Shown in pieces: positions 18,242 through 59,357 of a DNA stretch of 64,000 nt. The position numbers and the translations under genes are program-made. Origin of the DNA: Planctomycetota bacterium (lineage in GTDB: Bacteria; Planctomycetota; UBA1135; UBA2386); contig JAEUHS010000055.1 in NCBI GenBank assembly GCA_016794035.1, positions 11,351-75,350 on the forward strand. Direction: 5' to 3'. The notes below the pieces were generated by a model, which saw only the letters and a program-made list of their open reading frames with translations, ran no database searches and had not been told where the DNA came from. Position 1 is the stretch's first letter. Every line of letters begins with the position of its first letter.

Positions 18242-18356
18242 CCTGCTGGCGACGGTCTGGCTTGGGCCCACGTTCTGGCTGGTCACACGCTTTCCTCCGT
18301 CCCCCCTATCGGCAGGCTGCGCGCCGGGCACAAGGCGGGTCGGACGCGGTCGCGGA

Positions 18357-19364: not shown

Positions 19365-19421
19365 TGCGTTCCTTGCGCCGACGTTGCGAAACGGCGCAGC
19401 GGCGCGCCGGCTCGACTCGCG

Positions 19422-19676: not shown

Positions 19677-19696
19677 GTGCTTGTCCTTCGACGCTG

Positions 19697-20023: not shown

Positions 20024-20052
20024 GGGCGTTGGTCGGGTGGAAAGGGCAGGGG

Positions 20053-20080
20053 ACGATAGCGACCGACGGGGTCGTTTCAA
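20053..20080 (-). promoter_or_regulatory. Candidate sigma70-type promoter for rplU-rpmA-obg
   Basis: The minus strand reads TTGAAA, then a 16-nt spacer, then TATCGT. The -10 element lies about 30 nt upstream of the rplU ATG. Confidence 0.35.
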
Positions 20081-20129
20081 GCCCCCGCGCAAGGCCGTGG
20101 CTCCGGACGCCGACCCTGGCAGGGCGGCG

Positions 20130-24557: not shown

Positions 24558-24706
24558 CGTCGATCCTTCTCCCTCGCGGGGACTTCGTTTGATTCGCCGA
24601 AGGCCGGTGCCTGCAAGGTCACCGACCAGAATGCCTCTCCCTCATCGAACGCTCGATGCCGCCGGCTTGAGCGAACTCTGCGGTTCGCCGCCGGCGCATC
24701 GCACGC

Positions 24707-26128: not shown

Positions 26129-26139
26129 GGTGACTCACC

Positions 26140-26781: not shown

Positions 26782-26791
26782 GTGTGGTCTC

Positions 26792-27814: not shown

Positions 27815-28043
27815 GACGAGTGGCGCTCCTTCGGGGGATGCCCGCTTCCGCCTCCCTATCGGCCGCGGCCATGGCCCACATTGAGCCGCTGTGTCGGTCG
27901 GCGACGAAATCGCCGGAAGCCGCGTGGCGCGGGCCCGTTGGCGCCGCGCCGCCGCCGTCGCCTTGCGCGCCGCGCTGCGCCGACCGCTGCCGGCGGGGAC
28001 GGCCCGACCGTGAGCCCGAGGCGAAGGGGTCAGCCGGCGCCGG

Positions 28044-28337
28044 TCATTCCTCGCCGAAGTTGGCGACGACCAGTTCGGTCAGCGCCCGCAGCAGTCCGTC
28101 GGCGTCCGGGCCTTCGGCCACCAGCTCCAGCTCGGTGCCGCGCTCGGCGGCGAGCATCATCATGCCCATGATCGACTTGCCGTCGACGCGCTCGGCGTCG
28201 TCGATGCGACCGACCTGCAGCTTCGACGCGTAGGCGTTCGCGGTCTGCACGAACAGGTGGGCCGGACGGGCGTGCAGCCCGTGGCGGTTCGTCAGCGTGA
28301 TGCGAGCGGTTCTCGGTTCCCAGTCGGACACGGTCAC
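28044..28337 (-). CDS. ptsH: Phosphocarrier protein HPr/NPr
   Basis: ITLTNRHGLHARPAHLFVQTANAYASKLQVGRIDDAERVDGKSIMGMMMLAAERGTELELVAEG contains the active-site His motif. The GTG start at 28337 overlaps the ptsN stop (GTGA). Confidence 0.85.
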   Translation of the reverse strand: MTVSDWEPRTARITLTNRHGLHARPAHLFVQTANAYASKLQVGRIDDAERVDGKSIMGMMMLAAERGTELELVAEGPDADGLLRALTELVVANFGEE

Positions 28338-43744: not shown

Positions 43745-44147
43745 GATGGCAGCGGATCAGGACTGATGGCTTGAGTGTGCATGCGGCGGGCAGGTTGCCC
43801 AGGCGGCTCTGGACTGCACCCGCTGCACCTGGGACCAGCGATCCGCGAGCCCGGTCGGCAGTTCTCAGGGCCGCTCGATCCGCCCCGCCCCCTCACAGCA
43901 CACCGAGCAGCAGGTGGGTGCTCGAAGCGAGCGCCGGCGACGACGCGGGGCCGTATCCACCCGATCCGCTGCACGGCGATGCCACGGTCCCTCGGTGGGA
44001 AATCTGCGAGGAATCTCACCGCTCCGATGCACGTCAGGGCAAGCATCCCGAGCGCGCACACGCAAGACATCAGTTCTGAGGGTGCACCCGCGGTGCGATT
44101 CTCCGGAATGTCCGCCACCGGCGCGGGCTTCCGCCCACTGATGCCGC

Positions 44148-45482
44148 ATGCAGGACGCGCCCCAGCCCCGGCCGAGGCTCCAGTTCCGCGCGGGCCGGAT
44201 CCTCGCCTTCGATTGGCCCGCCGCGGTGCGCCCGCCGCTGGGCATGCAGCCGATCGAAGCTCCGCCCGCTGGCCCCCTGGCCGGGCCCGCGCGGCTGCGC
44301 TGGCGACTTCGTGCCGCCCTGCACGCGGTTGGCATCCCGTATCTCGACACGCTGGGCATCGGCACGATCGGAGCAGCACTCGACGAACGGGCCAAGGCAC
44401 CGAACGCCGACCCGAACTGGTCCGCAACGCTGCTCGCGCTGCGCCAGGCAGGCTACCGCGGCCTGGTGCAGGGTCTCGGTGATGCCGCGCGGCTGGGGCT
44501 GGTAGGAGCCCTCGCCCACGCGCTCCACCAGACCGCGCTCGTCGCCGTCGCCGACTCTGCCGTCGAGTACCGCTGGCAACGGGCGGCTGCAGCCGCCGGC
44601 CTCGCCGACGTCGTCACCCCGGCGCGGATCACCGGGCTTGCGCGCGACATGCACTGGCTCGGCGCGCGCCACGACCTGCTGGTCGTCGACACGCCCGAGG
44701 CGATGCCGCATGGGGCGCTCGCGCAGGCCTGCGACGCCTCGGCGGCGCTGGCCCGCGTCGGTCTGGTCACGCGCATCGACTCCTCCTCGGCGGCCCGCTG
44801 GGCGACCGGCATCGGCCCGCTCGTCACCACCCTCGAACGACGCGCCGGTGCCGACCACGTCGAACTGCGCACGGCGTTGCCCGACGAGGTGCGCGCCGGC
44901 TACGAAGCGGCGTGGCACACGTTCCTGGCCGCCTTCGATCGCTTCGCCGCGGCGCGGCCGAATGCCGGCTTCGGCACGTTCGTGCAGCAGGCGCGCGACG
45001 ACCCGATGCAGCGGCCGGCCCTGCGGGCCTGGCACGAGGCGGTGCGGCTCGCGGCCTGGCACGCGCACAAGGCCGCCATGGTCGCCGAGCTGCTGCAACG
45101 ACACCGCGGCCGACGCACGCTGGTGTTCACGCCCGATCGCCGCGCCGCGTACGAACTCGCCGGCCGGCACCTGATCCCGGCGATCACGGCCGAGATCCCG
45201 CGCGCCGAGCGCCAGGCGATGCTGGACGCGTTCCACCGCGGCTCCCTGCCGGCCCTGGCGGGTCCACGACTGCTCGACCTCGGCATCGCCGAAGGCACCG
45301 CCGACGTCGCGATCCTGGTCGGCGGCGGCTACGGCCGGGATCAACGCGACGCGCGCGTTCGCCGGGTGCGTCGCGATGGGCTGGTCTACGAACTGACGAC
45401 GCTCGACACCGTGGAGGTCTCGCGTGCCCACCGCTGGCGCAGCCGCGATGTCGCCGCAGCGCGTGCCGTACACGATCGCTGA
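44148..45482 (+). CDS. XPB/ERCC3-like superfamily-2 helicase homologue with degenerate ATPase motifs
   Basis: The C-terminal RecA lobe is intact (RTLVFTPDRRAAYELA...LDLGIAEGTADVAILVGGGYGRDQRDARVRRVRR). The N-lobe aligns with the XPB order, but the Walker A position reads GLGDAARLG, DExH reads DTPE, and GLTAT-RED reads GLVTRIDSS. There are only 2 Lys in 444 aa and no GK[ST]. Confidence 0.65.
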   Translation: MQDAPQPRPRLQFRAGRILAFDWPAAVRPPLGMQPIEAPPAGPLAGPARLRWRLRAALHAVGIPYLDTLGIGTIGAALDERAKAPNADPNWSATLLALRQAGYRGLVQGLGDAARLGLVGALAHALHQTALVAVADSAVEYRWQRAAAAAGLADVVTPARITGLARDMHWLGARHDLLVVDTPEAMPHGALAQACDASAALARVGLVTRIDSSSAARWATGIGPLVTTLERRAGADHVELRTALPDEVRAGYEAAWHTFLAAFDRFAAARPNAGFGTFVQQARDDPMQRPALRAWHEAVRLAAWHAHKAAMVAELLQRHRGRRTLVFTPDRRAAYELAGRHLIPAITAEIPRAERQAMLDAFHRGSLPALAGPRLLDLGIAEGTADVAILVGGGYGRDQRDARVRRVRRDGLVYELTTLDTVEVSRAHRWRSRDVAAARAVHDR

Positions 45483-46557
45483 CGGCGAATTCGTACCCGC
45501 CTGGCTCGGCGATCGCGACCGGCCCTGGCTGCGCGATCTGCTGGACGAGTCACGGGCGTACGTGGGCCGGCCGATCGGCGAGCTGCTGTTGCGCTTGCGC
45601 CGCAGCGACGTCGACCCGCGCGCGGGCAGACGCCAGGCACCGGCGGTGCACGCGCTCGTCGCCTGGCTGCGGCGGGCGGCGAACGGCCCCGCGCGATCGA
45701 CCGCGCGCCAGCACCTGTTTCGGCTGTATGCCGCCGGCGTGCCGGGCGCCGAAGCCATGCGACGGATCGCCGCGCAACACGGCCTGTCCCCCGACGTGCT
45801 GGCCGGCAGCCTGTTCGCCGACCTGCCGGACCAGCGACTCGTCCAGTGGCCCGAACCGCCGCCCGATCCGACCCGCCTCGCACTGCAGGCCAACACCAGC
45901 ATGGTGCAGGGTCTGCTGCGGCACGCGCACGTGCTCGAACTCCGGCTGCTGGGCGCCTCGCGCGCACTGCTGCGCACGGCCTGGCTCCATGGCGCAGGCC
46001 TGCAGACCGTCGACCACCGCGACGGCTCCGCCACCGGCCGCTGGCGACGCGGCGCGTCGGCCGGCACCGCACGAACGCTCGCCAGTCTGGTGCCGATGCT
46101 GCCGTGGACCCACCGGTATCGACTGATCGCGCAGTGCCAGGTCGGCATCGATCGCGGTCGCGTCGTGCTCGGCACCGGCGACCCGATCCTGCCGGCGCCC
46201 GAGCCGCGGCAGCACGACAGCCAGCTTGAACGCGCCTTCGCCCGCGACTTCGCTCGCGCGCGGCCGGACTGGCGGCTGCTGCGCGAACCGGCGCCGCTGG
46301 CCACCGCCGACGGCCTCGCCTTCCCCGACTTCGCGCTGACGTCGCCCGACCGGCAGCGCACCTGGCTGTGCGAGATCGCCGGCCTGCGCTCCGCGAGCGC
46401 CCTGCCGGCCAAGCTCGCCCTGCTCCAACATGGGCAGCTGGTGCTGTGTCTGCCCGAACGCGCAACCCCGCTCGAGTACCGGTCCCATCCTCGCGTGGTG
46501 CCGTTCCGCCGGCGCGTGCCGATCGAGCGCGTGCTGGCGATCCTCGAGCGAGGCTGA
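45448..46557 (+). CDS. Bax1 / DUF790-like endonuclease
   Basis: The C-terminal block HDSQLERAFARDF...WRLLREP...FPDFALT...WLCEIAG matches the DUF790 nuclease core (E...PD...E-I-x-G). It overlaps the 3' end of the helicase-like gene. A GTG at 45424 is an alternative start. Confidence 0.65.
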   Translation: MSPQRVPYTIADGEFVPAWLGDRDRPWLRDLLDESRAYVGRPIGELLLRLRRSDVDPRAGRRQAPAVHALVAWLRRAANGPARSTARQHLFRLYAAGVPGAEAMRRIAAQHGLSPDVLAGSLFADLPDQRLVQWPEPPPDPTRLALQANTSMVQGLLRHAHVLELRLLGASRALLRTAWLHGAGLQTVDHRDGSATGRWRRGASAGTARTLASLVPMLPWTHRYRLIAQCQVGIDRGRVVLGTGDPILPAPEPRQHDSQLERAFARDFARARPDWRLLREPAPLATADGLAFPDFALTSPDRQRTWLCEIAGLRSASALPAKLALLQHGQLVLCLPERATPLEYRSHPRVVPFRRRVPIERVLAILERG

Positions 46558-49488: not shown

Positions 49489-49983
49489 TCACGGCCCCGG
49501 CGACGGCGCGGGCGTCTCACGCAACCACGTGGCGGCCTCGGCTTCGCCGAGCCCGAACGCGAGGGCGTCGAACCACAACCACGGCTGCGTCGAGCGTTCC
49601 GGCCCACCGGTGACCGGGATCTGCTGCCCGGTCTCGACCAGTGTCGCCCGGCCGTTCGCCAGCGTGCCGCGCACGCGCAGCTGGATGCCGCCGACGCCCA
49701 TGTTGTTCTTGATCACGCCGTCGGCGATCGCGCGCAGGTCGAGCGGCTGCGGCCGTTCGATGCGCGCGCGGCAGAGCTGGCGATCCAGGTCGATCTGCGG
49801 GGTGGAGCCGAACCGGCTCTCGAAGAACTGCTGCAGGCCCAGCAGTTCCTCGTTTCAAGTTCAACCGAGCAGCTGGATCTCGACGAACGCGAAGTCGCCC
49901 GGCTGCGGCGCGATGTCGACGCCGGGCGCCATGCACGCGGCGAGCAGCACCGGCAGGAAGCGGGACGCGGTGGTTCTGGCCAT
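49489..49983 (-). CDS. Lipoprotein gene with two in-frame TGA codons (candidate U-x-U selenoprotein, or a pseudogene)
   Basis: ATG at 49983 gives MARTTASRFLPVLLAACMAPG... (lipobox). Codons 41 (49863-49861) and 43 (49857-49855) are TGA. The same frame continues with high GC3 for 121 further codons (NEELLGLQQFFESRFG...) to TGA at 49491-49489. It starts 1 nt after the stop of the barrel gene. Confidence 0.5.
49821..49852 (-). promoter_or_regulatory. SECIS-like RNA hairpin 2 nt downstream of the second in-frame UGA
   Basis: The mRNA reads CGAGGAACUGCUG-GGCCUG-CAGCAGUUCUUCG: a 13-bp stem (12 Watson-Crick pairs and 1 G-U) and a 6-nt loop starting GG. Confidence 0.45.
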
Positions 49984-49984
49984 G

Positions 49985-50875
49985 TCAGAAACGGTAGCCG
50001 AGCGACAAGTCGCACGTCCAGTCGACGTCGAGCTGCGTGCCGTTGAGGTCGCGCCACACCGGTACCTCGCCGGTGAGCTGCAGGTCGATCGCCGGCCGGG
50101 GCCGGAACGCCAGCGTCGCGCCGGCCAGCAGGCGGCTGCCGCCGGTGTCCGTCAGCAGCACGTCGTCCTGACGGTCGCGGCGCTCGTGGTGGAAGCGTGC
50201 GAACAGGTCGAGGCGCATGAACGGTCCCGGATACGGCTCGAGCCAGAACCGGTTGCCGACCGCCAGCTCGGCGAACAGCGAGTCGCCGCGCCGGTCACCA
50301 TCGCCGTCGGTGTCGGTGTGGCAGCGATAGAGCACCGCCGCGTTGAAGCGCCAGCGGCCGGGCTCGGGCGTGATCGCGAAGCCGATCGCGGGATCGACGC
50401 CGCCGCTGCCGACCTGCTGCTCGGGCTCGAGTTCGCGTCCGGCGGCGCGCTGGTCGTCGTCGCCGGTCGGCAGCGACACCATCGCGATCAGCGCGGCGTT
50501 GACCGCCACGCTCGGAGCGTCCCATCGCTTGACGCGCCACTTCGCCAGCAGCTCGACGTCGCCGATGCCGGCGTCCGCCTCCTGGCCGCCGGCGAACTCA
50601 CGCTCGACGTCGACGTACGGCACGGCGACGCCGACCTGCAGATCGTGGCGCAGGCCGTACTGCCAGGCCAGCGTCGAGGTGAAGCGGAACCGATGGCCGG
50701 CCTCGGGATCGGCGCTGCGCGCGCTGCCGGCCCGCCGCGACTCCTCGCGCTGCAGTTCGTTGCCGAAGCTGACCAGGTGCCCGCCCTCGTAGAGCGTCTC
50801 GCCGTCGACGACGTCGAGCACGGCCTGCGCCGGCAGGCCCGCGCCGAACAGCAGCAGCCACAGGGGAGCACGCAT
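49985..50875 (-). CDS. Putative outer-membrane beta-barrel protein
   Basis: Signal peptide MRAPLWLLLFGAGLPAQA, an alternating beta-strand pattern and a C-terminal ...LSLGYRF (aromatic terminus). Confidence 0.6.
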   Translation of the reverse strand: MRAPLWLLLFGAGLPAQAVLDVVDGETLYEGGHLVSFGNELQREESRRAGSARSADPEAGHRFRFTSTLAWQYGLRHDLQVGVAVPYVDVEREFAGGQEADAGIGDVELLAKWRVKRWDAPSVAVNAALIAMVSLPTGDDDQRAAGRELEPEQQVGSGGVDPAIGFAITPEPGRWRFNAAVLYRCHTDTDGDGDRRGDSLFAELAVGNRFWLEPYPGPFMRLDLFARFHHERRDRQDDVLLTDTGGSRLLAGATLAFRPRPAIDLQLTGEVPVWRDLNGTQLDVDWTCDLSLGYRF

Positions 50876-50896: not shown

Positions 50897-53395
50897 TCAC
50901 TGCACGACGGCCACCGCTTCGCTCGGCGCGTAGCCGACGTGTTCGCCGGCGGCGATCCGGACGAACGTGCCCTGCGCACCGCCCAGCAGCTCGACCTCGA
51001 CGCCGGGGCGCACGGTCGCGACCGGTTCGAGGCCGGCGCGCGGCTCCGACACCAGCGACAGCTTCTGCAGCGCGATCGCGTGCGCCGGCCGCTGCGGCGC
51101 CAGCAAGACGAGGTCGAGCGCCACGACGGCGGACGGCACCAGCACCAGCACGCCGACCCAGCGCAGGCCGATGCGGCGCCAGCCGAGCACCAGGCACAGC
51201 GCGGCGAACGACATGCCGAGCGCGCACAGCAGCAGCCGTTCGCCCGGCAGCAGGCGATCGCGCAGCGCCACCAGTTCGGCGACGAAGCCCTGACCGCCGT
51301 CGTCGAGTTGCAGCCGCCGGCGCACGAGCTGCACGTTGGCGAGCAGTTCGGCGTCGCGCGGGCGGCCCAGGCGCGCCGATTCGTAGGCCCACAGCGCGCG
51401 CGGCAGGTCGCCGAGCCGGAAGAAGCAGTTGCCGCGCGCCTGCTGCAATCGCCGGTCGCCGGTCGCCGCGAACGCATCGGCGAACGCGGCCTCGGCCTTC
51501 CGGTAGTCGCCGGCGCGATAGGCGGCGACGGCGGCGGGCACGTCGCCGCCCGCCTGCGCGGGCAGGGCGCCACCGACCGCCAACGCGCCCAGCAGCGGCA
51601 GCAGCACGACCAGCGGCGAACGTGCGACCGCGCCGAAACGCAGGCGTTCGAGCCGCTGCACGAGGTCCCGCACGGCACCGGCGTCGAGCGCCGCGCCGCC
51701 GCCGTAGCGGGACGCGGTGCCGCGTTCGACGGCCGCCGCGATCTCGGCCGCGACGGCGACCTCGAGCCCCGCCGCCTGCAGGCGCTGCGCCAGGTCCGGC
51801 GCGATCACCGCGGCCGCCGGCACGCCGAGCCGATCGCCGAGGTAGTTCGCCAGCGCCTGCAGCGGCTCCTCGCCGGCCTGCAGCGCCCGCCGGCAGGCGC
51901 GACCGGCGCCGCGCGCGCGCTGCGCCGCCGGATCGGCCGCGCGCCGCCGCGCCGCGCCGCGCCCGAACGCGACCAGCGCCACGAGCAGCCAGGGTCCGAG
52001 CACCGCCAGCCACACCCACCAGGTCGGCAGCCGGCCGCGCCGCGCCGGCTCGCCGTCGAGCGGCGGCAGGTCGTAGACGTCGTCGACGCCGGGCGTGACC
52101 GCGGCGACGGTCGTGTCCGGCAACGGCGCCAGCGTCTCGCCGTTCTCGAGCGGCTTGACCACGAGCGGCAGCGCCGGCGTCGTCACCTGCACGAACCGCT
52201 CGACGCCGGGCGTGGTGTCGAACCAGTTCCAGCCGATCGCCGGCACCGCGTGCACGTCGGTCGACAGCGGCGTCAGGTCGTAGGTGACGACGACCTTGTC
52301 GGTGTCGCGCGCCTCGGTCGCGCCGAGCTTGTGGAAGCCGTCGAGGCCGTCGAGTTCGGGCAGGCGCAGGAACTCGAAGTTGCCCTGGCCGCGCACGGTC
52401 AGCACCAGCTTGACCGAGCTGCCGACGCGCACCGTGTCCTTGTCGAGCCGCGCGTCCAGCGAGAATCGCCCGACCGCGCCGTAGTACGGCGTCGGCCGGC
52501 CCGCCTCCGGGATCGGCAGCACCTCGAGCGTGATCGGCTGGCCGTAGACGTAGTAGTTCTCGGCCTGCGCACCGCGGCGGCCGCCGAACAGGTCGGGCTG
52601 GCCTTCGCGCAGCATGACCTGGTAACGCAGCATCGGCGCGGTCAGCTCGATCGTGCCGATGCGGGTCGGCAGGAACGAACGTTCGAACGAGTACTGCGCC
52701 CAACGGCGGCCGCCGCGCTCGCTGCTGCCGTCGAAGAACGACGGCTGCAGCTTGCGGTTGGCGACGATCAGCCGGATGTCGCCCTTCGGGTCCGGCATCG
52801 AGATCGGTTCGCCACCGGGGAACGTGTCCAGCCACGGCGCCTGCACCTCGACGTCGAGGTAGCGGTAGCGGTTGGCGACGTCCTGCACGAGCCGCAGCCC
52901 CGGCTCGATGCCGAGGTCGACGTGGATGCGGATCGGCTCGTGCACGTAGACGCGACGCGGCTCGACCTTCACGTCGAGCCAGGCGAGCTCCTCGCCGCGC
53001 AGGTCCTTCTTCACCTCGAGCCGCAGCTCGGGCGTCATCTGCTCCCTGGTGCCGGTCCAGATCGGAAACGGCGGCACCACGAACGTGCCCTCCTGCAGCG
53101 GCTGCAGGATCAGCTGGTACTGCACGCCGACCCGTTCGGTCAGGTTGCGGCCGTCGAAGAACGTGTAGCTGTTGCGCGACGGCGGCGTCAGCTGCAGCCG
53201 CAGCCCCGGCACCTCGGGCAGCGTCGGGGTGCGCGGGTTCGCCTCGCGGCCCTCGATGCGCAGGTTGGCGCGCGCCGTGTCGCCGAGGCGGATCGTCGAC
53301 GGCGACGGCGCCTCGACCTCGAGCTTCTCCTGCGCCGGCAGCGACGCCGCGAGCGCCGCGAGCAGCAGCCCGAGTGGCCACGCGGTGCGCATCAC
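50897..53395 (-). CDS. BatD-like protein fused to a BatE-like TPR/TM/SH3 C-terminus
   Basis: 832 aa with a signal peptide and a BatD-type N-terminal region. Then a TM helix, TPR (AVAAYRAGDYRKAEAAF), further TM helices and a C-terminal SH3-like segment (VRPGVEVELLGGAQGTFVRIAAGEHVGYAP). Confidence 0.7.
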   Translation of the reverse strand: MMRTAWPLGLLLAALAASLPAQEKLEVEAPSPSTIRLGDTARANLRIEGREANPRTPTLPEVPGLRLQLTPPSRNSYTFFDGRNLTERVGVQYQLILQPLQEGTFVVPPFPIWTGTREQMTPELRLEVKKDLRGEELAWLDVKVEPRRVYVHEPIRIHVDLGIEPGLRLVQDVANRYRYLDVEVQAPWLDTFPGGEPISMPDPKGDIRLIVANRKLQPSFFDGSSERGGRRWAQYSFERSFLPTRIGTIELTAPMLRYQVMLREGQPDLFGGRRGAQAENYYVYGQPITLEVLPIPEAGRPTPYYGAVGRFSLDARLDKDTVRVGSSVKLVLTVRGQGNFEFLRLPELDGLDGFHKLGATEARDTDKVVVTYDLTPLSTDVHAVPAIGWNWFDTTPGVERFVQVTTPALPLVVKPLENGETLAPLPDTTVAAVTPGVDDVYDLPPLDGEPARRGRLPTWWVWLAVLGPWLLVALVAFGRGAARRRAADPAAQRARGAGRACRRALQAGEEPLQALANYLGDRLGVPAAAVIAPDLAQRLQAAGLEVAVAAEIAAAVERGTASRYGGGAALDAGAVRDLVQRLERLRFGAVARSPLVVLLPLLGALAVGGALPAQAGGDVPAAVAAYRAGDYRKAEAAFADAFAATGDRRLQQARGNCFFRLGDLPRALWAYESARLGRPRDAELLANVQLVRRRLQLDDGGQGFVAELVALRDRLLPGERLLLCALGMSFAALCLVLGWRRIGLRWVGVLVLVPSAVVALDLVLLAPQRPAHAIALQKLSLVSEPRAGLEPVATVRPGVEVELLGGAQGTFVRIAAGEHVGYAPSEAVAVVQ

Positions 53396-54387
53396 CAGTC
53401 GCGCCCCACCGGCCGGCGTCCGGTCTTGCTGCCCTGCCGCAGCTGCTGCAGCTTGCCGTCGAGCTGCTTGAGCTGCTCGAGCAGCCGCTGGGTCTGTTCG
53501 GGGGTCAGCTCCTTGGGCTCGACGGTCTCCCCGGGCGCGTCGGTGCGCGCCTGCTGCGGTTCGCCGTCGGGCTTCGGCTCCGGCTTCGCCGCATCGGGCT
53601 TCGGTTCCTGCGCTGGTTGCGCATCGTCCTTGCCGTCCTTGCCCGCATCCGGCTTCGGCTCCGGCGGCGGTTGCGGTTCGCCGGGCTTGCGTTCGCCCCC
53701 GTCGTCCTTCTGGTCGCCCTGGTCCTGGTGCTGCTGCTGGTCGCCCTGCTTGTCGTCGCCCTTCTGGTCCTTCTGGTCCTGCTTGTTCTCGTCCTGGTTC
53801 TCGTCCTGCTTGTCGTCCTGCTTCTGCTGCTCTTCGCGCTGCTGCTTCAGCTCGTCGATCTTCTTCTGCAGCTCGTCGAGGTAGCGCAACGCGCGCTCGG
53901 TGTTGCGCAGCAGCTCGGGGGTCGCCTTGGCCGCGGCACCGGCGACGAAGTGGTCCCTGGCCTGTTTCGCCTTGGCCAGCGCCTGCTCGAGCACGGGCAG
54001 CGGATCGGGCGGCGCCACGTCGGCCTGGCCGGCCGCCGGCGGCGGCACGCCACCACCCTGCGACATCGCATCGGCCTCACCCTCGAGCTGCTGCGCCTCG
54101 GCGAAACGAACGGCACCGAGCAGCCCGCGGTGCAGGTCGACGCGCGCGTCCTTGGCCAGCGCCGCGTACTTCTCGGCCGCCGTCTCGGCCGCGGCGAGGT
54201 CACCGGCGCGCCAGCTCGCCAGCGCCAGGTTCCACTGCAGGTCCGCCGCGTCGCCATCGTGTGCGATCGCGCTGCGGAACGCCGCCGCGGCCTCGGCGAA
54301 CCTGCCGTCGCGGTAGAGCTGCAGGCCCTGTTCGCGGTCGCCCCCACCGCCGGCACACAGACAGGCGAACAGCAGCAGCGTCTTCAT
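53392..54387 (-). CDS. BatC-like TPR lipoprotein with a long charged Q/D/K/E/P-rich tail
   Basis: MKTLLLFACLCAGGG (lipobox), TPR segment LYRDGRFAEAAAAFRSAI, and a low-complexity tail QREEQQKQDDKQDENQDENKQDQKDQKGDDKQGDQQQHQDQGDQKDD. ATGA overlaps on both sides. Confidence 0.7.
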   Translation of the reverse strand: MKTLLLFACLCAGGGGDREQGLQLYRDGRFAEAAAAFRSAIAHDGDAADLQWNLALASWRAGDLAAAETAAEKYAALAKDARVDLHRGLLGAVRFAEAQQLEGEADAMSQGGGVPPPAAGQADVAPPDPLPVLEQALAKAKQARDHFVAGAAAKATPELLRNTERALRYLDELQKKIDELKQQREEQQKQDDKQDENQDENKQDQKDQKGDDKQGDQQQHQDQGDQKDDGGERKPGEPQPPPEPKPDAGKDGKDDAQPAQEPKPDAAKPEPKPDGEPQQARTDAPGETVEPKELTPEQTQRLLEQLKQLDGKLQQLRQGSKTGRRPVGRDW

Positions 54388-55373
54388 CGGTGTCGACCTC
54401 CGGCCATCGCGATCTCGAACAGTAGCAGCACCAGCAGCGGCAGCAGCACCCACTGGTAGCGCGCGCGTTTGCCGGTCTGTTCCCCGGCGTCGTAGCTGCG
54501 CTTCTGCATCGGCAGCAGGCGCTTTGCGTGCAGTTCGTTCAGCGGCAGCACCATCGCATCGGCGCGCAGGAACTCGCCGCCGGTCACGTTCGCGACCGCG
54601 CGCAGGCTCTCCGGGTCCATCTTCGAGACGACCTCGGCGCCGTCCTGGTCGCGCAGGAACGTCTCGCCGCCGTCCGCGGCGACCGTGATCTTGCTGCCCA
54701 TCGAACTGCCGTAGCCGATCGCGTGCACGACGATGCCCTGGTCGTGCAGTTCGGTCGCCGCCTGCCGCCCGGCACCGGCGAGGTCCTCGCCATCGGTCAG
54801 CAGCACGACGGCAGTGGTCTTGTTGTGCTCGACGTCGGCGGTCTCCAGCGCCTTGCGCAGCGCCGCGGCGAGGTCGGTGCCGCCGGTCTTGACGGTCTCC
54901 GTGTCGACCTCGTCGAGCAGCCCGCGGAACGAGTCGAGGTCGTGCGTCAGCGGGATCCACAGGCGTGCCTGGCCCGCGAACACGACCAGACCGACACGGT
55001 CGCCGCCCTCGAGATCCGGCAGCACGGCGCGGATGTCCTGCAGCGCGCGCGCGAGCCGCGTCGGCTCGAGGTCGCGCGCCAGCATCGAGCGCGAGGTGTC
55101 GAGGCAGAAGATCAGGTCGAGGCCGCGCCGTTCGACCGACACCGGCTCGTCGCCGTAGCGCGGGTCCATCCAGCAGACGAGGCCGAGGCCGAGCAGCAGC
55201 GTCAGCCGCAGCGACTGCAGCAACGGCCGCGGCACCGCGTCGCCGCCGCGCGCGCCGTAGCGCCGCACCGCGCGCCGCGAACGATCGAACAGCGCCCACA
55301 GCAGCGCCCACGCGACCGGCAGCGCCAGCAGCCACGGCCAGAGGTCGGCGCGCGTGAACTGCAGCTCGTTCAC
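54384..55373 (-). CDS. vWA-domain protein BatB-like
   Basis: N-terminal TM helices, MIDAS motif LDLIFCLDTSRSM and VVLLTDGEDL. The GTG start overlaps the upstream stop (GTGA). Confidence 0.8.
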   Translation of the reverse strand: MNELQFTRADLWPWLLALPVAWALLWALFDRSRRAVRRYGARGGDAVPRPLLQSLRLTLLLGLGLVCWMDPRYGDEPVSVERRGLDLIFCLDTSRSMLARDLEPTRLARALQDIRAVLPDLEGGDRVGLVVFAGQARLWIPLTHDLDSFRGLLDEVDTETVKTGGTDLAAALRKALETADVEHNKTTAVVLLTDGEDLAGAGRQAATELHDQGIVVHAIGYGSSMGSKITVAADGGETFLRDQDGAEVVSKMDPESLRAVANVTGGEFLRADAMVLPLNELHAKRLLPMQKRSYDAGEQTGKRARYQWVLLPLLVLLLFEIAMAGGRHR

Positions 55374-56350
55374 GGGATCCTCCGGAACAGCAGCACCTCG
55401 GCGCAGAGCGCCAGCAGCAGCAGGCCGAGGCCGGCGCCGAGCGGCCACTCGAAGCGGTCGATCGTGCGGTAGCGCGGGTCCTCGAGCTCGGTCTTCTCCA
55501 GCTCGTCGATCTTGTCGTAGACCGCGCCAAGGTCCGCGTCGGTCTTCGGCTGGAAGAACGCGCCGCCGGTGGTCTCGGCGATCATGCGCAGGTCGGCGAA
55601 GTCCAGCCGCTGGAAGCCGAACGGCGTCGGCACGCCGTTGCCGAGCCCGATCGTGTGCACGCGGATGCCGCTGTCCTTGGCGAGCTTGGCGCCGTCGGCC
55701 GGCAGGATGTCGACGATCGTGTTCTCGCCGTCGGTCAGCAGCACCGCGACCTTCGCCTTCGCCTTGCTCTTGGCCAGCACCTGCACGGCCTTCGCCAGCG
55801 CGGTGCCGATCGCGGTGCCGTCGTACTCGGAGTTGGTCGGCACCGTGTCGACGCCGTGCAGGAACGCCGCCAGCGCGCGCTCGTCCAGCGTCGGCGGGCA
55901 GCGCAGTTCGGCGTAGTGCGCGAACGTGATCAGGCCGACCCGGTCGTGGCTGCGCTTCGCGGCGAACTGTTCGGCGCGCGAGCGCGCCGCGTCCATGCGC
56001 CGGATCGACTCGGTCTGGCTCATGTCGTCGATCGTCATCGACGAGCTGGTGTCGACGACCAGCACGATGTCGACGCCTTCCTCCTCGATCGGCACGACCT
56101 CGCGCTGCACCGGCCGCGCCATCGCCACCGACAGGCACAGCACCGCCAGCAGGCGTCCGGCCTGCGGCAGCCAGACCAGTCGCTGCCGCAGCGTCGGCCG
56201 CAGACCGGCGAACAACGACACCGACGCGGTGTGCAGCGCCGCGCGCGGACGCCACCAGCGCCACCCGACCGCCAGCACGGCCAGCGGCGCGACCAGCAGG
56301 AACCACGGGTCCAGCAGCGTGACCTCGCCGAACGTGAGGCTGGCGCTCAT
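55370..56350 (-). CDS. vWA-domain protein BatA-like
   Basis: N-terminal TM helices, MIDAS motif VDIVLVVDTSSSM and VAVLLTDGENT, plus a C-terminal TM helix. Confidence 0.8.
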   Translation of the reverse strand: MSASLTFGEVTLLDPWFLLVAPLAVLAVGWRWWRPRAALHTASVSLFAGLRPTLRQRLVWLPQAGRLLAVLCLSVAMARPVQREVVPIEEEGVDIVLVVDTSSSMTIDDMSQTESIRRMDAARSRAEQFAAKRSHDRVGLITFAHYAELRCPPTLDERALAAFLHGVDTVPTNSEYDGTAIGTALAKAVQVLAKSKAKAKVAVLLTDGENTIVDILPADGAKLAKDSGIRVHTIGLGNGVPTPFGFQRLDFADLRMIAETTGGAFFQPKTDADLGAVYDKIDELEKTELEDPRYRTIDRFEWPLGAGLGLLLLALCAEVLLFRRIP

Positions 56351-57297
56351 GCCGGCACCTCCGTCGCGGCGCGGTCGCCGGCGGTGGTCGCCACGAACGC
56401 CTCGGCCAGCGCGAACGTCGCCAGGTGCTCGGGCTCGCCCGGCGTCGCCGCCGCGAACTTCACCAGATCGCACTGCGACAGGAAGCGTTCGAGTTCGGCG
56501 CGGTGCTCGCGCGCGAGCTGGTCGCCGGCCTCGAGGTCACGCAGGAACTCCTCGGTGGTGCGCTCGGGCGCGCGCAGGCCGAAGCGCTCCTCGAGATACG
56601 TGCGCAGCACGTCCGACACCTCGACGTAGAACCCGGCGACCTGCGCCGAGGTGCCGCGCGGCGCCGTGCGCAGCCGCGCGAGCGCGCGCTGCGCCTTCAC
56701 GTGCGGCGGCAGCGCCACCGCCTCGCGGTGCGGCACCGCGCGCCGCCGACGGCGCCAGGCGACGAAGCCGAGCGCCCCGAGCAGCAGCAGGCCGGCGGCG
56801 CCGGCGATCCACCACGGCAGCCGCGACGGCGGCGGGAACGGCGCGCCCGGCGCTTCGATCGCCGCGCCCTGGTCGACCAGCGACGACAGCACGGTGATCG
56901 TCTGTTCGGGCGTGCTGGCGGCCGACGCACCGTCCTTGGCACGGGCGACGAACGACGGCAGCACCAGGTCGGCCGGGCCGCGCACCGGCCGCAGCGTCAG
57001 CAGCGTGTGCTGCCACCGGCCGTCGCCGAACGCGGTCTCCGGCAGCGACACCTTGTCGACCAGGAAGTCCGCCGGGTCGACCGCGGGCGCGAACTCCACC
57101 TCGACGTCGTTGCGGCGGTAGAGGTCGAGCTGCACCAGCACCGGCTCCAGCAGGTGCACCTTGCGCGCCGACACCCGGATCTCGAGGGCGAGCGCGTCCG
57201 GCGGCGGTGTCGGCCACGGCGGCACAGGCCCGCCGCAGGCCGCGACCAGCGCGACCAGCAGGCACCGCACCACCGCCGAGCGCGCGCGCGTCGTCAC
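56347..57297 (-). CDS. DUF4381-like membrane protein of the MoxR/Bat operon
   Basis: Lipobox-like LLVALVAACGG and a central TM helix WWIAGAAGLLLLGALGFVAWRRRRR. The C-terminus reads FYVEVSDVLRTYLEERFGLRAPERTTEEFL. GTG start with a GTGA overlap. Confidence 0.65.
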   Translation of the reverse strand: MTTRARSAVVRCLLVALVAACGGPVPPWPTPPPDALALEIRVSARKVHLLEPVLVQLDLYRRNDVEVEFAPAVDPADFLVDKVSLPETAFGDGRWQHTLLTLRPVRGPADLVLPSFVARAKDGASAASTPEQTITVLSSLVDQGAAIEAPGAPFPPPSRLPWWIAGAAGLLLLGALGFVAWRRRRRAVPHREAVALPPHVKAQRALARLRTAPRGTSAQVAGFYVEVSDVLRTYLEERFGLRAPERTTEEFLRDLEAGDQLAREHRAELERFLSQCDLVKFAAATPGEPEHLATFALAEAFVATTAGDRAATEVPA

Positions 57298-58229
57298 CGT
57301 TTGGCTCCGCGCAGTTCGCGCATGCGGAAGAAGCGCACCAGCGGGTCGGCGACCGAGCCGGTGGTGTGCACGTCGAGCAGGTCGACCTTGGCGCGGCGGC
57401 AGGTGTCGAGCAGCTGCTGTCGTTCGAGCTGCCAGCGCTGCTGCAGTTCGCGCCGCACGCGCGCACTCTGCGTGTCGACGACGATCGTGCGCCCGGTCTC
57501 CGGATCGGCGACGTGCAGCAGGCCGACCTCGGGCAGCGTGCCGACCGTGCCGTCCGGCAGCAGCCCGGCCGCGAACGGGTCGCGGATGCGCACCGCGATC
57601 ACGTCGTGCCGCTGCGACAGCAGCCGCAGCTTGTTGCCGACGTCGGCCGCGAGGAAGTCGCTGACGACGAACACGATCGCGCGCCGGCGCTGCACGCGGC
57701 CGGCGTAGTCGAGCGCCGCCACCAGGTCCGAACGCGACTTCGGCACCGGCGGCGCGCACGCCTCGCGGATCAGCCGCAGCACGTGGTTGCGGCCCTTCTT
57801 CGCCGGCACGTAGCGTTCGATGCGGTCGGTGAACGTGATCAGCCCGGCCTTGTCGTTGTTGCGCGCCGCCGCGAACGCGACGCAGCCGACGAACAACGCC
57901 GCCGTGGTCGCCACCGTGCGCCGGCTGCTGCCCGGCGGGGTCGAGCCGAACGCCATCGACGCCGACACGTCGAGCAGGAACAGCACCGTCAGCTCGCGCT
58001 CCTCGACGAACTTCTTCACGAACGGCCGCCCGGTGCGCGCGGTGACGTTCCAGTCGACCGAGCGCAGCTCGTCGCCCTCGGCGAACTCGCGCACCTCGTC
58101 GAACTCGATGCCCGAGCCGCGGAACACGGAGCTGTAGCCGCCCGCCATCACGTCGGTGACCATGCGGTCCGCGCGCACCTGGATGCGCCGCGCCTCCGCC
58201 AGCAGTTCGGGGTCGATCACCGACGCCAT
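57294..58229 (-). CDS. DUF58 family protein (vWA-like, MoxR-associated)
   Basis: [50 protein letters not shown] is a classic DUF58 signature. Confidence 0.88.
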
Positions 58230-58242
58230 GACGGCTCCTCCG

Positions 58243-59232
58243 TCAGGGCACCTTGACCGTGTCGAACACGGTCTGCAGGACCTGTTCGCTGGTCACGCCT
58301 TCGGCCTCGGCCTCGTAGGTCGTCAGCACGCGGTGGCGCAGCACCATCAGGCCGGTCGCCTTGACGTCCTGCGGCGTCACGAAGCCGCGGCCCTCGAGGA
58401 ACGCGCGCGCGCGGGCCGTGCGCGCCAGCGCCAGCGAGGCGCGCGGCGAGGCGCCGTAGAGGATCAGCGGCTTCAGCTTCGCGAGGCCGACCGCGGCCGG
58501 ATCGCGCGTCGCGAACACCAGGTCGACGATGTAGCCCTTGACCTTGTCGTCGAGGTAGATCGTGTCCAGCAGCTGCCGCATGCGCAGCAGCTCCTGCGGC
58601 GTCGTGACCGGCCGGACGTCGGTGCTCGCCGCGAGGCCGGCCATGCGGTCGATGATCTTCAGCTCCTCCTGCTTGCTCGGGTAGCCGACCACGAGCTTGA
58701 CCAGGAAGCGGTCGATCTGCGCCTCGGGCAGCGCGTAGGTGCCTTCCTGTTCGACCGGGTTCTGCGTCGCCAGCACCAGGAACGGGTCCGGCAGCTTGCG
58801 CGTGTCGCCGGCCAGCGTGACCTGACGCTCCTGCATCGCCTCGAGCAGCGCCGACTGCACCTTGGCCGGCGCGCGGTTGATCTCGTCGGCGAGCACGAAG
58901 TTGGCGAACACCGGCCCTTCCTTGACCTGCCACTCGCCGGTCTTCGGGTTGTAGACGTGCGTGCCGACCAGGTCGGCCGGCAGCAGGTCGGGCGTGAACT
59001 GGATGCGGCGGAACTGGCCGCCGACCGCGCGCGCCAGCGACGACACCGCCAGCGACTTGGCGAGCCCGGGCAGGCCCTCGAGCAGCACATGGCCGTCGGC
59101 GAGCAACGCGATCAGCAGACCGTCGAGCAGGGCGTCCTGGCCGACGATCACGTTCTGCAGCGCCTGCCGCACGGCCTGCAGGCTCTTGCTCTCCGACTGG
59201 ATGCGTTGGGCGATGGCGACGACGTCGGTCAT
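58243..59232 (-). CDS. MoxR-family AAA+ ATPase
   Basis: Walker [14 protein letters not shown] and Walker [28 protein letters not shown]. Confidence 0.93.
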
Positions 59233-59272
59233 GCGAGACTCTGCGCGCGGGGTGGTTCCAAAGTGGCGGACG

Positions 59273-59300
59273 ACGATACCGGCGCGCCCGGACTCCTCAA
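59273..59300 (-). promoter_or_regulatory. Candidate sigma70-type promoter of the MoxR/Bat operon
   Basis: The minus strand reads TTGAGG, then a 16-nt spacer, then TATCGT. The -35 element lies inside the first 17-nt repeat. Confidence 0.3.
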
Positions 59301-59357
59301 TTCCGCAGACTCCTCAATTCTGCAGACTCCTCGCTCGTGCGACTCGTCAATCGCGCG
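59291..59357. repeat. 17-nt tandem repeat array (2 near-identical and 2 degenerate copies)
   Basis: gactcctcaattccgca (59291-59307), gactcctcaattctgca (59308-59324), gactcctcgctcgtgc (59325-59340) and gactcgtcaatcgcgcg (59341-59357). GC content is locally low. Confidence 0.85.

What the first reader, a model, noticed from the sequence alone, without database searches (positions are those of the whole stretch)
49489..49983. Lipoprotein gene with G-TGA-ACT-TGA-N in frame, followed by a 13-bp SECIS-like hairpin: candidate di-selenocysteine (U-x-U) protein
Seen in the sequence (minus strand). An ATG at 49983 opens a lipoprotein-type ORF (LPVLLAAC). The ORF hits TGA at codon 41 (49863-49861), then ACT, then TGA again (49857-49855). 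The identical frame carries on for 121 further codons with the very high GC3 typical of real genes here, ending at TGA 49491-49489. Both halves therefore look like one 164-codon gene rather than two. Two nt after the second UGA, the mRNA can fold as CGAGGAACUGCUG-[GGCCUG]-CAGCAGUUCUUCG: 13 bp including one G-U pair. The loop starts with GG and lies about 15 nt from the second UGA and about 21 nt from the first. That geometry resembles what is generally described for bacterial SECIS elements: a stem-loop just 3' of the UGA with G in the first loop positions. The UGA pair follows a hydrophobic strand (FAFVEIQLLG) and precedes a helix-like segment. This is where HMA-type ferredoxin folds place their metal-binding cysteines, so a Cys/Sec-x-Cys/Sec metal or redox site is plausible (inference). 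The local sequence GGTTGAACTTGAAAC is conspicuously AT-rich for this genome. The gene starts 1 nt after the stop of an outer-membrane barrel gene at the tail of the MoxR/Bat operon. Bacterial proteins with two Sec residues one residue apart would be very unusual. The alternative is a recently inactivated gene.
Basis: partly seen in the sequence, partly recalled or inferred. Interest (0 to 1): 0.72.

Follow-up and report, generated by a model that had tools for sequence, protein, structure and literature searches.

The report
Two-selenocysteine (U-T-U) metal-chaperone-like lipoprotein gene
This is very probably a real, previously unannotated bacterial selenoprotein gene: a small exported lipoprotein, shaped like a copper/mercury chaperone, whose metal-binding loop carries two selenocysteines one residue apart, each encoded by a conserved in-frame UGA 'stop' codon that is followed by conserved RNA hairpins.

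Summary
On the minus strand, 49983-49489 is one 164-codon gene with TGA-ACT-TGA at codons 41-43. All 18 distinct relatives whose DNA I could read (Planctomycetota MAGs and metagenomes, down to about 40% identity) keep both TGAs. The middle Thr codon varies only synonymously, the frame is under purifying selection on both sides, and a lipoprotein signal with an invariant Cys comes first. Stop-free relatives carry C-T-S, C-S-A or C-S-C at the same columns, which is the classic Sec/Cys pairing. The 13-bp hairpin meets the published bacterial SECIS criteria. A second hairpin follows it directly. Both hairpins show compensatory changes, and synonymous variation is suppressed over exactly these two hairpins. 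AlphaFold models of two Cys forms (pLDDT 92 and 85) give an HMA-type fold whose best PDB matches are Cu/Hg chaperones, with the motif at the canonical metal site. The conserved partner is the upstream PF13557 outer-membrane barrel. Cys forms sit near MerC, YHS and HMBD genes. Pfam, NCBIfam and a 2026 selenoprotein catalogue do not contain the family. The Sec machinery of these genomes could not be examined, so Sec insertion and the function are both inferred.

The parts
49489..49983 (-). Complete gene: 164 codons including two in-frame UGA codons, ending at TGA 49491-49489. It encodes a lipoprotein precursor with a U-T-U motif.
   Evidence: Orthologous full-length frames occur in 18 distinct loci. 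dN/dS is below 1 in every segment.
49933..49983 (-). Lipoprotein signal peptide (codons 1-17, MARTTASRFLPVLLAAC), with the lipobox Cys at 49935-49933.
   Evidence: The Cys column is invariant (TGC 15, TGT 2) while the rest of the signal peptide varies freely (column 24). Cys-form relatives also have lipoboxes.
49861..49863 (-). First in-frame UGA (codon 41), read as selenocysteine (inferred).
   Evidence: TGA in 17 of 17 aligned genes, and also in L025 and L029. It aligns with Cys in all 16 Cys-form homologues.
49858..49860 (-). Thr codon between the two UGAs.
   Evidence: ACT, ACC, ACG and ACA all occur, so only synonymous changes are seen. Homologues have Thr or Ser at this position.
49855..49857 (-). 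Second in-frame UGA (codon 43), read as selenocysteine (inferred).
   Evidence: TGA in all Sec forms. It aligns with Cys in the C-S-C class and with Ser or Ala in the C-T-S/C-S-A class.
49821..49852 (-). Hairpin H1, the SECIS-like element: 13-bp stem (49852-49840 paired with 49833-49821) and loop GGCCUG (49839-49834).
   Evidence: Folding. RNAalifold gives the same consensus. 97.7% of cells are paired, and there is a compensatory A-U to G-C change in L024 and L025 and in L029. It meets the bSECIS criteria quoted.
49805..49819 (-). Hairpin H2: GAGCCG-GUU-CGGCUC, 6 bp, placed one nt after H1. Its role is unexplained.
   Evidence: Predicted in every Sec form. Two pairs show compensatory changes. 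It is kept in L029 although the encoded residues differ. Synonymous variation resumes at the first nt past it.
49985..50875 (-). Upstream partner gene: a PF13557 (Phenol_MetA_deg) outer-membrane beta-barrel, whose stop codon lies 1 nt before the lipoprotein ATG.
   Evidence: Pfam E = 1.5e-9. The same gene sits directly upstream of the Sec forms in the window clade and in the divergent L025 and L029.
50897..59313 (-). MoxR-DUF58-BatA/VWA-...-BatD operon upstream of the porin. This is the context in this clade only.
   Evidence: Pfam hits. The same order is seen in L001 and L004. It is absent upstream of the porin in L029, which has an HtrA-like protease and an HMBD protein there instead.

Best explanation
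Window 49983-49489 (minus strand) is a functional selenoprotein gene.

The mRNA is translated from the ATG, which is coupled to the stop codon of the upstream porin gene. Translation runs through two UGA codons that are decoded as selenocysteine, giving a G-U-T-U motif. It ends at the third, ordinary UGA.

Recoding is directed by the RNA structure that starts 2 nt after the second UGA. That structure is a 13-bp hairpin with a G-first apical loop (a bacterial SECIS that would bind SelB.GTP.Sec-tRNASec), followed by a second short hairpin. The long stem places the loop 21 nt from the first UGA and 15 nt from the second. One element can therefore plausibly serve both codons while the ribosome melts the lower stem.

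The product is exported, lipidated on Cys17, and folds into an HMA-like beta-alpha-beta-beta-alpha-beta domain with a C-terminal beta extension. The first Sec lies in the beta1-alpha1 loop and the second at the N-terminus of helix alpha1. HMA chaperones (Atx1, CopZ, MerP) hold their two metal-ligand cysteines in the same positions.

The most likely job is binding or handing over a soft metal ion (Cu(I), Hg(II), Ag(I) or Cd(II)) through two selenolates, working with the co-transcribed outer-membrane barrel.

Shown here: the conserved recoding signature, the RNA structure, the Sec/Cys pairing, the predicted fold and the gene context. Inferred: that the inserted residue is Sec, that H1 is the SelB-binding site for both codons, and the metal function.
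For: Conservation of the recoding site. TGA-ACN-TGA is present in all 18 distinct Sec-form genes, down to about 40% identity, and the Thr codon uses all four synonymous codons. Pooled dN/dS is 0.47 for the mature N-terminus before TGA1 and 0.08 for codons 67-79, which lie after TGA2 but before any canonical internal start.

UGA is an ordinary stop here. It is the commonest normal stop codon in this 70.6% GC window, and it ends both the porin gene and this gene itself.

Sec/Cys pairing. Stop-free homologues read D-C-T-S-N or D-C-S-A-N (10 proteins) or G-C-S-C-F (6 proteins), with real TGC/TGT codons. An apparent W-T-W homologue is TGA-ACA-TGA in the DNA.

RNA structure. H1 and H2 are predicted in every Sec form at about -31 kcal/mol, against -14.5 in the C-T-S form, with z = -5.0 against shuffles. 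97.8% of cells are paired, against 28-53% when the partner is slid, and three pairs carry compensatory double changes. Synonymous heterozygosity is 0.07 over codons 51-66, which span exactly H1 and H2, against 0.21-0.34 elsewhere.

bSECIS criteria. The criteria quoted from PMC13188914 are met: loop 4-8 nt, stem 9-14 bp, G as first loop base, dG -15 to -24 kcal/mol, and 20-22 nt from UGA1 to the loop.

Fold. AF2 models have pLDDT 91.7 (pTM 0.82) and 84.9 (pTM 0.73). The motif lies between beta1 and alpha1 in both. The top Foldseek PDB hits are Atx1, CCS domain 1, Atox1, CopZ, CopA/PacS N-terminal domains, MerP, ZntA and GolB, with target TM about 0.6-0.75 and rmsd 2.2-3.5 A over about 70 residues.

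Context. The porin is conserved directly upstream. HMBD, MerC, YHS and OEP genes sit near family members in L028, L029 and L033.

Literature. Some Planctomycetes have complete Sec-insertion gene sets (PMC4807772). Sec in metal-ligand motifs and two-Sec UxxU proteins are known (PMC13188914; bioRxiv 10.1101/2022.07.06.499078).
Against: No selA, selB, selD or tRNA-Sec was found in the 64-kb window or in about 300 kb of related loci. This is uninformative rather than negative, but the key prerequisite remains unshown.

The spacing from UGA2 to the loop is 14-16 nt. That is at or just below the lower bound (16 nt) of the bSECIS model.

Two successive Sec insertions should be inefficient, so much of the product could be the 40-residue peptide.

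The second UGA aligns with Ser or Ala, not Cys, in the largest Cys class.

The HMA relationship is structural only. There is no Pfam, NCBIfam or PDB sequence match, and Foldseek E-values are modest (7e-3 and weaker).

The metal-related neighbours are within a few kb but mostly not in the same operon, and the window clade sits in a Bat/MoxR operon with no obvious metal gene.

Single-Cys relatives cannot chelate a metal with two ligands from one chain.
Confidence: 0.82

Rival explanations
1. It is a genuine two-Sec selenoprotein, but the U-x-U pair is a redox centre (a diselenide/diselenol or peroxide-reducing site) rather than a metal site. It would serve the oxidative-stress role attributed to the Bat 'aerotolerance' operon in which it sits.
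For: In the window clade the gene ends a MoxR-DUF58-BatA...BatD-porin operon. Most known bacterial selenoproteins are redox enzymes (PMC13188914). CxC motifs form strained, reactive disulfides (my own knowledge). Single-Cys C-T-S relatives fit a one-nucleophile redox chemistry better than they fit chelation.
Against: The fold matches are HMA metal chaperones, not thioredoxin-like or peroxiredoxin folds. The Bat link is not conserved in divergent Sec forms, whereas the porin link is. HMBD, MerC and YHS neighbours point to metals.
Confidence: 0.25
2. Two separate products. Translation stops at the tandem UGAs and releases a 40-residue lipopeptide. Ribosomes then reinitiate a few codons downstream (at CUG, or AUG in some relatives, behind the GAGGA motif) to make a separate cytoplasmic protein of about 117 residues.
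For: Gene callers split the gene in this way in all databases. A GAGGA(A/G) Shine-Dalgarno-like motif lies 1-4 nt before an in-frame CUG or AUG. Tandem stop codons are a known device for efficient termination (my own knowledge).
Against: Stop-free homologues are single ORFs aligned residue by residue across the junction, including N-E-E/R right after the motif. The Thr codon between the stops changes only synonymously. The predicted fold needs strand beta1 from the upstream part. The supposed start is buried in a 13-bp helix. The SD-to-start spacing is too short. The downstream part would lose its export signal.
Confidence: 0.05
3. Programmed read-through of both UGAs without selenocysteine. 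A near-cognate or suppressor tRNA would insert Cys, Trp or Arg, and the hairpins would act as read-through stimulators.
For: The Sec machinery was not demonstrated for these genomes. Downstream hairpins can stimulate read-through in other systems (my own knowledge).
Against: Two successive read-through events would be extremely inefficient. The hairpin fits the bSECIS model specifically, with a G-first small loop at the right distance. Alignment of the UGAs with Cys is the hallmark of Sec. No comparable conserved double read-through is known in bacteria (my own knowledge).
Confidence: 0.06
4. It is a pseudogene, a recently inactivated allele, or a sequencing/assembly error.
For: Two stop codons lie in a short stretch that is AT-rich for this genome.
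Against: Identical TGA positions occur in 18 distinct genes from independent assemblies (NCBI MAGs, JGI, ENA and Logan) down to about 40% identity, with purifying selection on both sides.
Confidence: 0.01

Closest known systems
HMA (heavy-metal-associated, PF00403) metallochaperones and domains: Atx1/Atox1, CopZ, MerP, and the N-terminal domains of CopA, PacS and ZntA
   Same: The predicted beta-alpha-beta-beta-alpha-beta fold is the same (target TM 0.6-0.75, rmsd 2.2-3.5 A). The two chalcogen residues sit in the beta1-alpha1 loop and at the helix N-terminus, preceded by Gly. MerP is likewise extracytoplasmic.
   Different: There is no detectable sequence similarity. The spacing is U-x-U/C-x-C instead of C-x-x-C. 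The ligands are Sec rather than Cys. The protein is lipid-anchored, has an extra C-terminal beta extension of about 60 residues, and is paired with an outer-membrane barrel.
[quoted passage not shown]
   Same: Sec replaces Cys in putative soft-metal ligand motifs. Two closely spaced UGAs are decoded from one mRNA region. Some members are exported or are lipoproteins (PMC13188914; bioRxiv 10.1101/2022.07.06.499078).
   Different: The joined protein matches none of the NCBIfam models. The motif spacing is U-x-U. The family is so far confined to Planctomycetota. It has a conserved porin partner.
The UxU variant of rhodanese-related sulfurtransferase in the Olavius algarvensis delta-1 symbiont
   Same: It is the only previously reported bacterial U-x-U motif I could find (PMC1976440).
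   Different: There, the second Sec is a sporadic addition in a few metagenomic sequences of an otherwise single-Sec family with a rhodanese fold. Here, U-T-U is invariant across the whole Sec clade, in an HMA-like fold.
E. coli fdhF-type bacterial SECIS / the bSECIS consensus model
   Same: A stem-loop inside the coding region directly 3' of the UGA, with a small apical loop starting with G and the right distance and stability.
   Different: One hairpin has to serve two UGAs 6 nt apart, with the second UGA at the lower distance limit. A second conserved, covarying hairpin follows immediately, and the consensus model has no counterpart for it.

Membership tests
Bacterial selenoprotein gene (Sec-UGA plus bSECIS) | In-frame UGA conserved among orthologues, with the coding frame conserved on both sides | tested here: met
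   18 of 18 distinct Sec-form genes keep both TGAs. dN/dS is 0.47 upstream and 0.08-0.36 downstream.
Bacterial selenoprotein gene (Sec-UGA plus bSECIS) | Cys-containing homologues whose Cys aligns with the UGA (Sec/Cys pair) | tested here: met
   UGA1 aligns with Cys in 16 of 16 Cys forms. UGA2 aligns with Cys in the 6 C-S-C forms and with Ser or Ala in the 10 C-T-S/C-S-A forms.
Bacterial selenoprotein gene (Sec-UGA plus bSECIS) | bSECIS stem-loop: apical loop 3-9 nt, stem 4-16 bp, G in the first two loop positions, 16-37 nt from the UGA, MFE <= -7.5 kcal/mol (criteria from PMC13188914) | tested here: met
   H1 has a loop of 4-8 nt, a stem of 9-14 bp, G as first loop base and dG of -15 to -24 kcal/mol. 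It lies 20-22 nt from UGA1. For UGA2 the distance is 14-16 nt, which is borderline. Covariation is shown.
Bacterial selenoprotein gene (Sec-UGA plus bSECIS) | The genome encodes selA, selB, selD and tRNA-Sec (selC) | not testable with these tools
   None was found in the 64-kb window or in about 300 kb of related loci, but the rest of the genomes could not be read. The trait exists in some Planctomycetes (PMC4807772).
Bacterial selenoprotein gene (Sec-UGA plus bSECIS) | Selenium incorporated into the full-length product | not testable with these tools
   This needs 75Se labelling or mass spectrometry.
HMA domain (PF00403) | Sequence match to the family profile | tested here: not met
   No Pfam hit at E <= 1. 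No PDB hit with the family profile at E <= 10.
HMA domain (PF00403) | beta-alpha-beta-beta-alpha-beta ferredoxin-like fold superposable on HMA structures | tested here: met
   Two AF2 models (pLDDT 91.7 and 84.9) give top Foldseek hits to Atx1, CopZ, Atox1, MerP and others, with probability 0.97-1.00 and target TM about 0.7.
HMA domain (PF00403) | GMxCxxC metal-binding motif in the beta1-alpha1 loop and first helix turn | tested here: not met
   The motif is G-U-T-U (or C-S-C, C-T-S). The location is the same (loop plus helix N-terminus), but the spacing is x1 rather than x2 and there is no Met.
NCBIfam selenoprotein families (including NF041115, UxxU metal-binding protein) | Score above the cut-off of any NCBIfam model | tested here: not met
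   0 families at E <= 1 for two joined family members.
Bacterial lipoprotein | N-terminal signal peptide ending in a lipobox with an invariant Cys | tested here: met
   The window protein has L-A-A-C. The Cys column is invariant in 17 of 17 aligned genes while the signal peptide is otherwise variable. Cys-form relatives also have G-C or A-C lipoboxes. No dedicated predictor was available.
Bat/MoxR aerotolerance operon component | Conserved co-occurrence with the MoxR-DUF58-BatA-BatB-BatC-BatD genes | tested here: not met
   The co-occurrence holds in the window clade. It is absent in the divergent Sec form L029 and in the Cys forms L028, L031 and L033. Only the PF13557 porin is a conserved neighbour of the Sec forms.

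The most novel reading that the evidence does not exclude
The two adjacent, covarying hairpins form a tandem recoding element matched to the two UGAs. Each hairpin would pre-load one SelB.Sec-tRNA complex (both loops fit the G-first SECIS loop pattern). As the ribosome consumes the first complex and melts H1, the second is delivered to the UGA two codons later. This would be a previously undescribed way of inserting two selenocysteines almost back to back. The product would be a diselenolate metal site in an outer-membrane-associated chaperone that works with a dedicated porin.
Probability: 0.15. Interest if true: 0.75.

Novelty: new member of a known kind. Interest (0 to 1): 0.6.

Why it matters
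If confirmed, this adds a new family to the bacterial selenoproteome. The family would have several unusual properties:
- it always carries two selenocysteines separated by one residue;
- it is exported and lipid-anchored;
- it has the fold of a copper/mercury chaperone;
- it occurs in Planctomycetota, a phylum barely represented in selenoprotein catalogues.

It is a natural test case for how one coding-region SECIS, or a tandem pair, can serve two UGA codons 6 nt apart. It also bears on what a diselenolate site offers over a dithiolate one for soft-metal handling in the oxidising cell envelope.

There is a practical lesson too. Every database entry for the family is a truncated fragment, or a Trp-containing mistranslation made with genetic code 4. 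Both the gene and its partnership with the PF13557 porin are therefore invisible to standard annotation.

Tried and rejected
Annotation libraries:
- Pfam and NCBIfam scans of the joined protein (U written as C) gave no family.
- A family-profile search of the PDB gave nothing at E <= 10.
- Rfam found nothing at gathering thresholds on the window, and only chance-level hits (<= 18 bits) in an E-value scan of 49650-50000. To my knowledge Rfam has no general bacterial SECIS model.

Search for Sec machinery:
- ARAGORN found no tRNA in the window or in 17 loci.
- Two window ORFs with the sizes of SelA and SelB turned out to be PilO and a secretin.
I did not use the third large protein search for SelB or SelD, because the hits could not have been tied to these particular genomes.
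- A scan for other in-frame TGAs with coding signal on both sides found only ordinary gene junctions.

Hypotheses and leads rejected:
- The apparent W-T-W homologue (P0023) suggested UGA read as Trp. The DNA is TGA-ACA-TGA, so the Trp is an artefact of the gene call.
- Genome-wide UGA reassignment is rejected because TGA is the main ordinary stop codon here.
- The repeat proteins P0036, P0081 and P0099 are spurious profile hits.

Full report
OBSERVATION.

Reading the minus strand confirms every sequence fact in the finding. The ATG is at 49983, one nucleotide after the TGA stop of the upstream ORF 49985-50875. The signal peptide is MARTTASRFLPVLLAAC. TGA lies at 49863-49861, ACT follows, and a second TGA lies at 49857-49855. 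The same frame then stays open for 121 codons to TGA 49491-49489. That downstream segment has GC3 = 0.93, typical of real genes in this 70.6% GC window. The hairpin CGAGGAACUGCUG-GGCCUG-CAGCAGUUCUUCG (49852-49821) has 13 bp with one G-U pair. The 59 nt from the first UGA fold at -31.1 kcal/mol, against -16.9 +/- 2.8 for dinucleotide shuffles (z = -5.0).

IS IT ONE CONSERVED GENE?

A search with the joined protein found 17 homologues, all only 90-122 aa long and all covering only the part after the TGAs. This is what one expects if gene callers everywhere stop at the same place. I collected the DNA of relatives from contig look-ups, from one scan of species genomes (six Planctomycetota MAGs) and from one metagenome scan.

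Every one of 17 distinct genes reads ...FAF[VFL][EQ]IQL[LQ]G-TGA-ACN-TGA-[NS]EEL... behind a variable signal peptide that ends in an invariant lipobox Cys. Two more divergent members, L025 and L029 (roughly 40-50% identity), show the same thing. The codon between the TGAs is ACT, ACC, ACG or ACA, so it changes only synonymously.

Pooled Nei-Gojobori dN/dS is 0.47 for the mature N-terminal segment. It is 0.08 for codons 67-79, which lie after the second TGA but before any ATG/GTG/TTG. Both halves are therefore translated in this frame. This rules out a recent pseudogene and rules out assembly error.

TGA is the commonest ordinary stop codon in the window, and it terminates both the porin gene and this gene. 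The genome therefore has not reassigned UGA.

SEC/CYS PAIRS.

A profile search of 1.84 billion representatives found 84 family members. Most begin just after the TGA position ('MGLEKLL...') and so are truncated gene calls. A minority are full-length and stop-free:
- Ten read D-C-T-S-N or D-C-S-A-N.
- Six read G-C-S-C-F.
- One has lost the motif (E-E-A-A).

All have lipoboxes. The DNA shows real TGC-ACC-TCG and TGC-AGC-TGT codons. In the alignment the first UGA falls on Cys in all 16 Cys forms. The second falls on Cys (C-S-C class) or on Ser/Ala.

One apparent G-W-T-W-N homologue (P0023) is TGA-ACA-TGA in its DNA. The gene caller had applied a code in which TGA means Trp. A UGA aligning with Cys in homologues is the criterion used by SECIS-independent selenoprotein searches (PMC13188914).

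THE RNA ELEMENT.

All Sec forms are predicted to form two adjacent hairpins starting 2 nt after the second UGA. RNAalifold returns the same consensus structure.

On the 17-sequence alignment, 97.8% of cells form standard pairs, against 28-53% when the 3' partners are slid by 1-3 columns. Three pairs show compensatory double changes: A-U to G-C in H1 (L024, L025), and A-U to G-C and G-C to A-U in H2. L029 adds another A-U to G-C in H1 and keeps H2 although the encoded residues differ.

Synonymous-site heterozygosity drops to 0.07 over codons 51-66, against 0.21-0.34 elsewhere. By my mapping of codons onto the alignment columns, that stretch spans exactly H1 plus H2. Codons that are unusual for this genome are frozen there (GAA, CGG). 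Variation resumes at the first nucleotide beyond H2.

The C-T-S form has no comparable structure (-14.5 kcal/mol).

Measured against the bSECIS model as stated in PMC13188914, H1 qualifies in all 12 representatives tested:
- apical loop 4-8 nt (allowed 3-9);
- stem 9-14 bp (allowed 4-16);
- G as first loop base;
- dG -15 to -24 kcal/mol (required <= -7.5);
- 20-22 nt from UGA1 to the loop (allowed 16-37).

For UGA2 the distance is 14-16 nt, at the lower limit.

H2's loop (GUU, UGUAC or AGUUC) also fits the G[G|U] loop pattern. It lies 41-47 nt from the UGAs, outside the model's range, so its role is unexplained.

THE PROTEIN.

P0028 (C-T-S) gave pLDDT 91.7 and pTM 0.82. P0080 (C-S-C) gave pLDDT 84.9 and pTM 0.73.

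Both models show beta1, the motif, alpha1, beta2, beta3, alpha2, a long beta4, and then further C-terminal strands. In P0080, beta1 ends at residue 45, the motif is G46-C47-S48-C49, and alpha1 starts at residue 50. The first chalcogen residue is therefore in the loop and the second is at the helix N-terminus.

Foldseek against the PDB returns almost exclusively HMA metallochaperones and HMA domains for both models: Atx1, CCS domain 1, Atox1, CopZ, CopA/PacS/ATP7 N-terminal domains, MerP, ZntA and GolB. Probabilities are 0.97-1.00, target TM about 0.6-0.75, and rmsd 2.2-3.5 A over about 70 residues.

The E-values are modest (7e-3 and weaker), and there is no sequence-level match to Pfam, NCBIfam or the PDB. 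I therefore describe the protein as HMA-like in fold and in site position. I do not file it as a member of PF00403. The defining GMxCxxC motif is also not met, since the spacing here is x1.

CONTEXT AND FUNCTION.

The neighbour that stays with the Sec forms is the PF13557 barrel directly upstream. It is present in the window clade and in the divergent L025 and L029. The Bat/MoxR operon does not stay with them: L029 has an HtrA-like protease and an oppositely oriented HMBD protein there instead.

Cys forms sit in other contexts:
- L028 has an M50 protease directly upstream, amid an OEP channel, MerC, three YHS proteins and an HMBD protein.
- L033 has a MerC-unknown-YHS cluster about 4 kb away.
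- The C-S-C form follows a PBP_like_2 gene.

Taking the fold, the site position, the chemistry of selenolates and these neighbours together, the most likely role is binding or relay of a soft metal at the outer membrane, in partnership with the barrel. This is an inference. A redox role linked to the Bat operon is the main alternative, and the single-Cys relatives fit simple chelation poorly.

MECHANISM OF RECODING (INFERRED).

SelB.GTP.Sec-tRNASec would bind the apical part of H1. With UGA1 in the A site, only the bottom of the 13-bp stem needs to melt. With UGA2 in the A site two codons later, roughly 9-10 bp must be open, leaving the apical 3-4 bp and the loop about 10 nt from the codon. 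That is close to the spacing known for the minimal E. coli fdhF element (my own knowledge). The unusually long stem may therefore be what allows one element to serve both codons. Alternatively, H2 may provide a second SelB site. Neither possibility can be tested here.

WHAT COULD NOT BE SHOWN.

No sel gene or tRNA-Sec is present in the window or in the related loci I hold. Some Planctomycetes do carry complete Sec-insertion gene sets (PMC4807772). This is the main reason the confidence stays at about 0.8 rather than higher.

COMPARISON WITH WHAT IS KNOWN, AND NOVELTY.

Coding-region SECIS-directed Sec insertion is textbook biology. Two-Sec proteins exist (UxxU in NF041115 and in the FmdB family). 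Sec in metal-ligand motifs has been described (SO_0444 U-S-C versus C-S-C, YHS, CopZ-like and SAO-system proteins). A U-x-U motif was reported once, as a sporadic variant of a rhodanese-like protein (PMC1976440).

This family matches none of the existing models. It is absent from the 2026 catalogue, whose text contains no 'UxU', 'lipoprotein' or 'Planctomyc'. In sequence databases it appears only as fragments labelled hypothetical.

I rate it a new member of a known kind: a new selenoprotein family with an unusual, invariant U-T-U motif. The tandem-hairpin element is the part that could turn out to be mechanistically new.

VERDICT.

- Observation: confirmed.
- Interpretation: supported.
- Confidence that this is a genuine gene translated through two conserved UGAs: about 0.9.
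- Confidence that the inserted residues are Sec: about 0.82.
- Confidence in a soft-metal function: about 0.45.
- Interest: 0.6.

Noticed in passing
L025:864-1352 (JGI Ga0673005_0133516); protein P0023: The public gene call translates both TGAs as Trp (G-W-T-W-N), so a code-4-type model was applied to a 64% GC planctomycete contig. Calls like this disguise selenoproteins as Trp-containing proteins in protein databases.
   Followed up: yes
window 49805-49819 (minus strand): A second conserved, covarying hairpin (GAGCCG-GUU-CGGCUC) lies immediately after the SECIS-like hairpin. Its loop fits the SECIS G[G|U] pattern, but it is 41-47 nt from the UGAs. Its role is unexplained.
   Followed up: partly
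L028:1556-8355 and L033:4472-5950: A MerC, unknown 129-144 aa protein, YHS-domain protein cluster recurs near the single-Cys relatives on two independent contigs. L028 also has an OEP channel, more YHS proteins and an HMBD protein. This looks like an uncharacterised metal-handling island.
   Followed up: partly
window 44142-46557 (plus strand): A Helicase_C protein (44142-45482) overlaps a DUF790 protein (45397-46557). This resembles the XPB-helicase/Bax1-nuclease gene pair (the pairing is recalled from my own knowledge and was not tested).
   Followed up: no
window 22695-28078 (minus strand): A type IV pilus / secretin cluster: PilM (26792-28078), an unassigned ORF (26140-26844), a PilO-domain protein (24707-26134) and a secretin with STN, N0 and Secretin domains (22695-24641).
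   Followed up: no
window 1-8055 and 15071-22331 (minus strand): Core housekeeping genes: RpoA (930-1979), SecY (4595-5995) with flanking small ORFs that look like ribosomal protein genes, an EF-G-like GTPase (15071-17104), Obg (18357-19421) and RNase E/G (20130-22331). The window is therefore chromosomal core, not a mobile island.
   Followed up: no
proteins P0036, P0081 and P0099 (profile search): Long repeat proteins matched the family profile through several short stretches only (for example 'KNNCGVGGTG' repeats). These are spurious hits, not family members.
   Followed up: yes
protein P0060 (169 aa): One full-length family member has E-E-A-A in place of the U/C-x-U/C motif but keeps the rest of the fold signature and the lipobox. 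Either the motif has been lost or this member has a different function.
   Followed up: no
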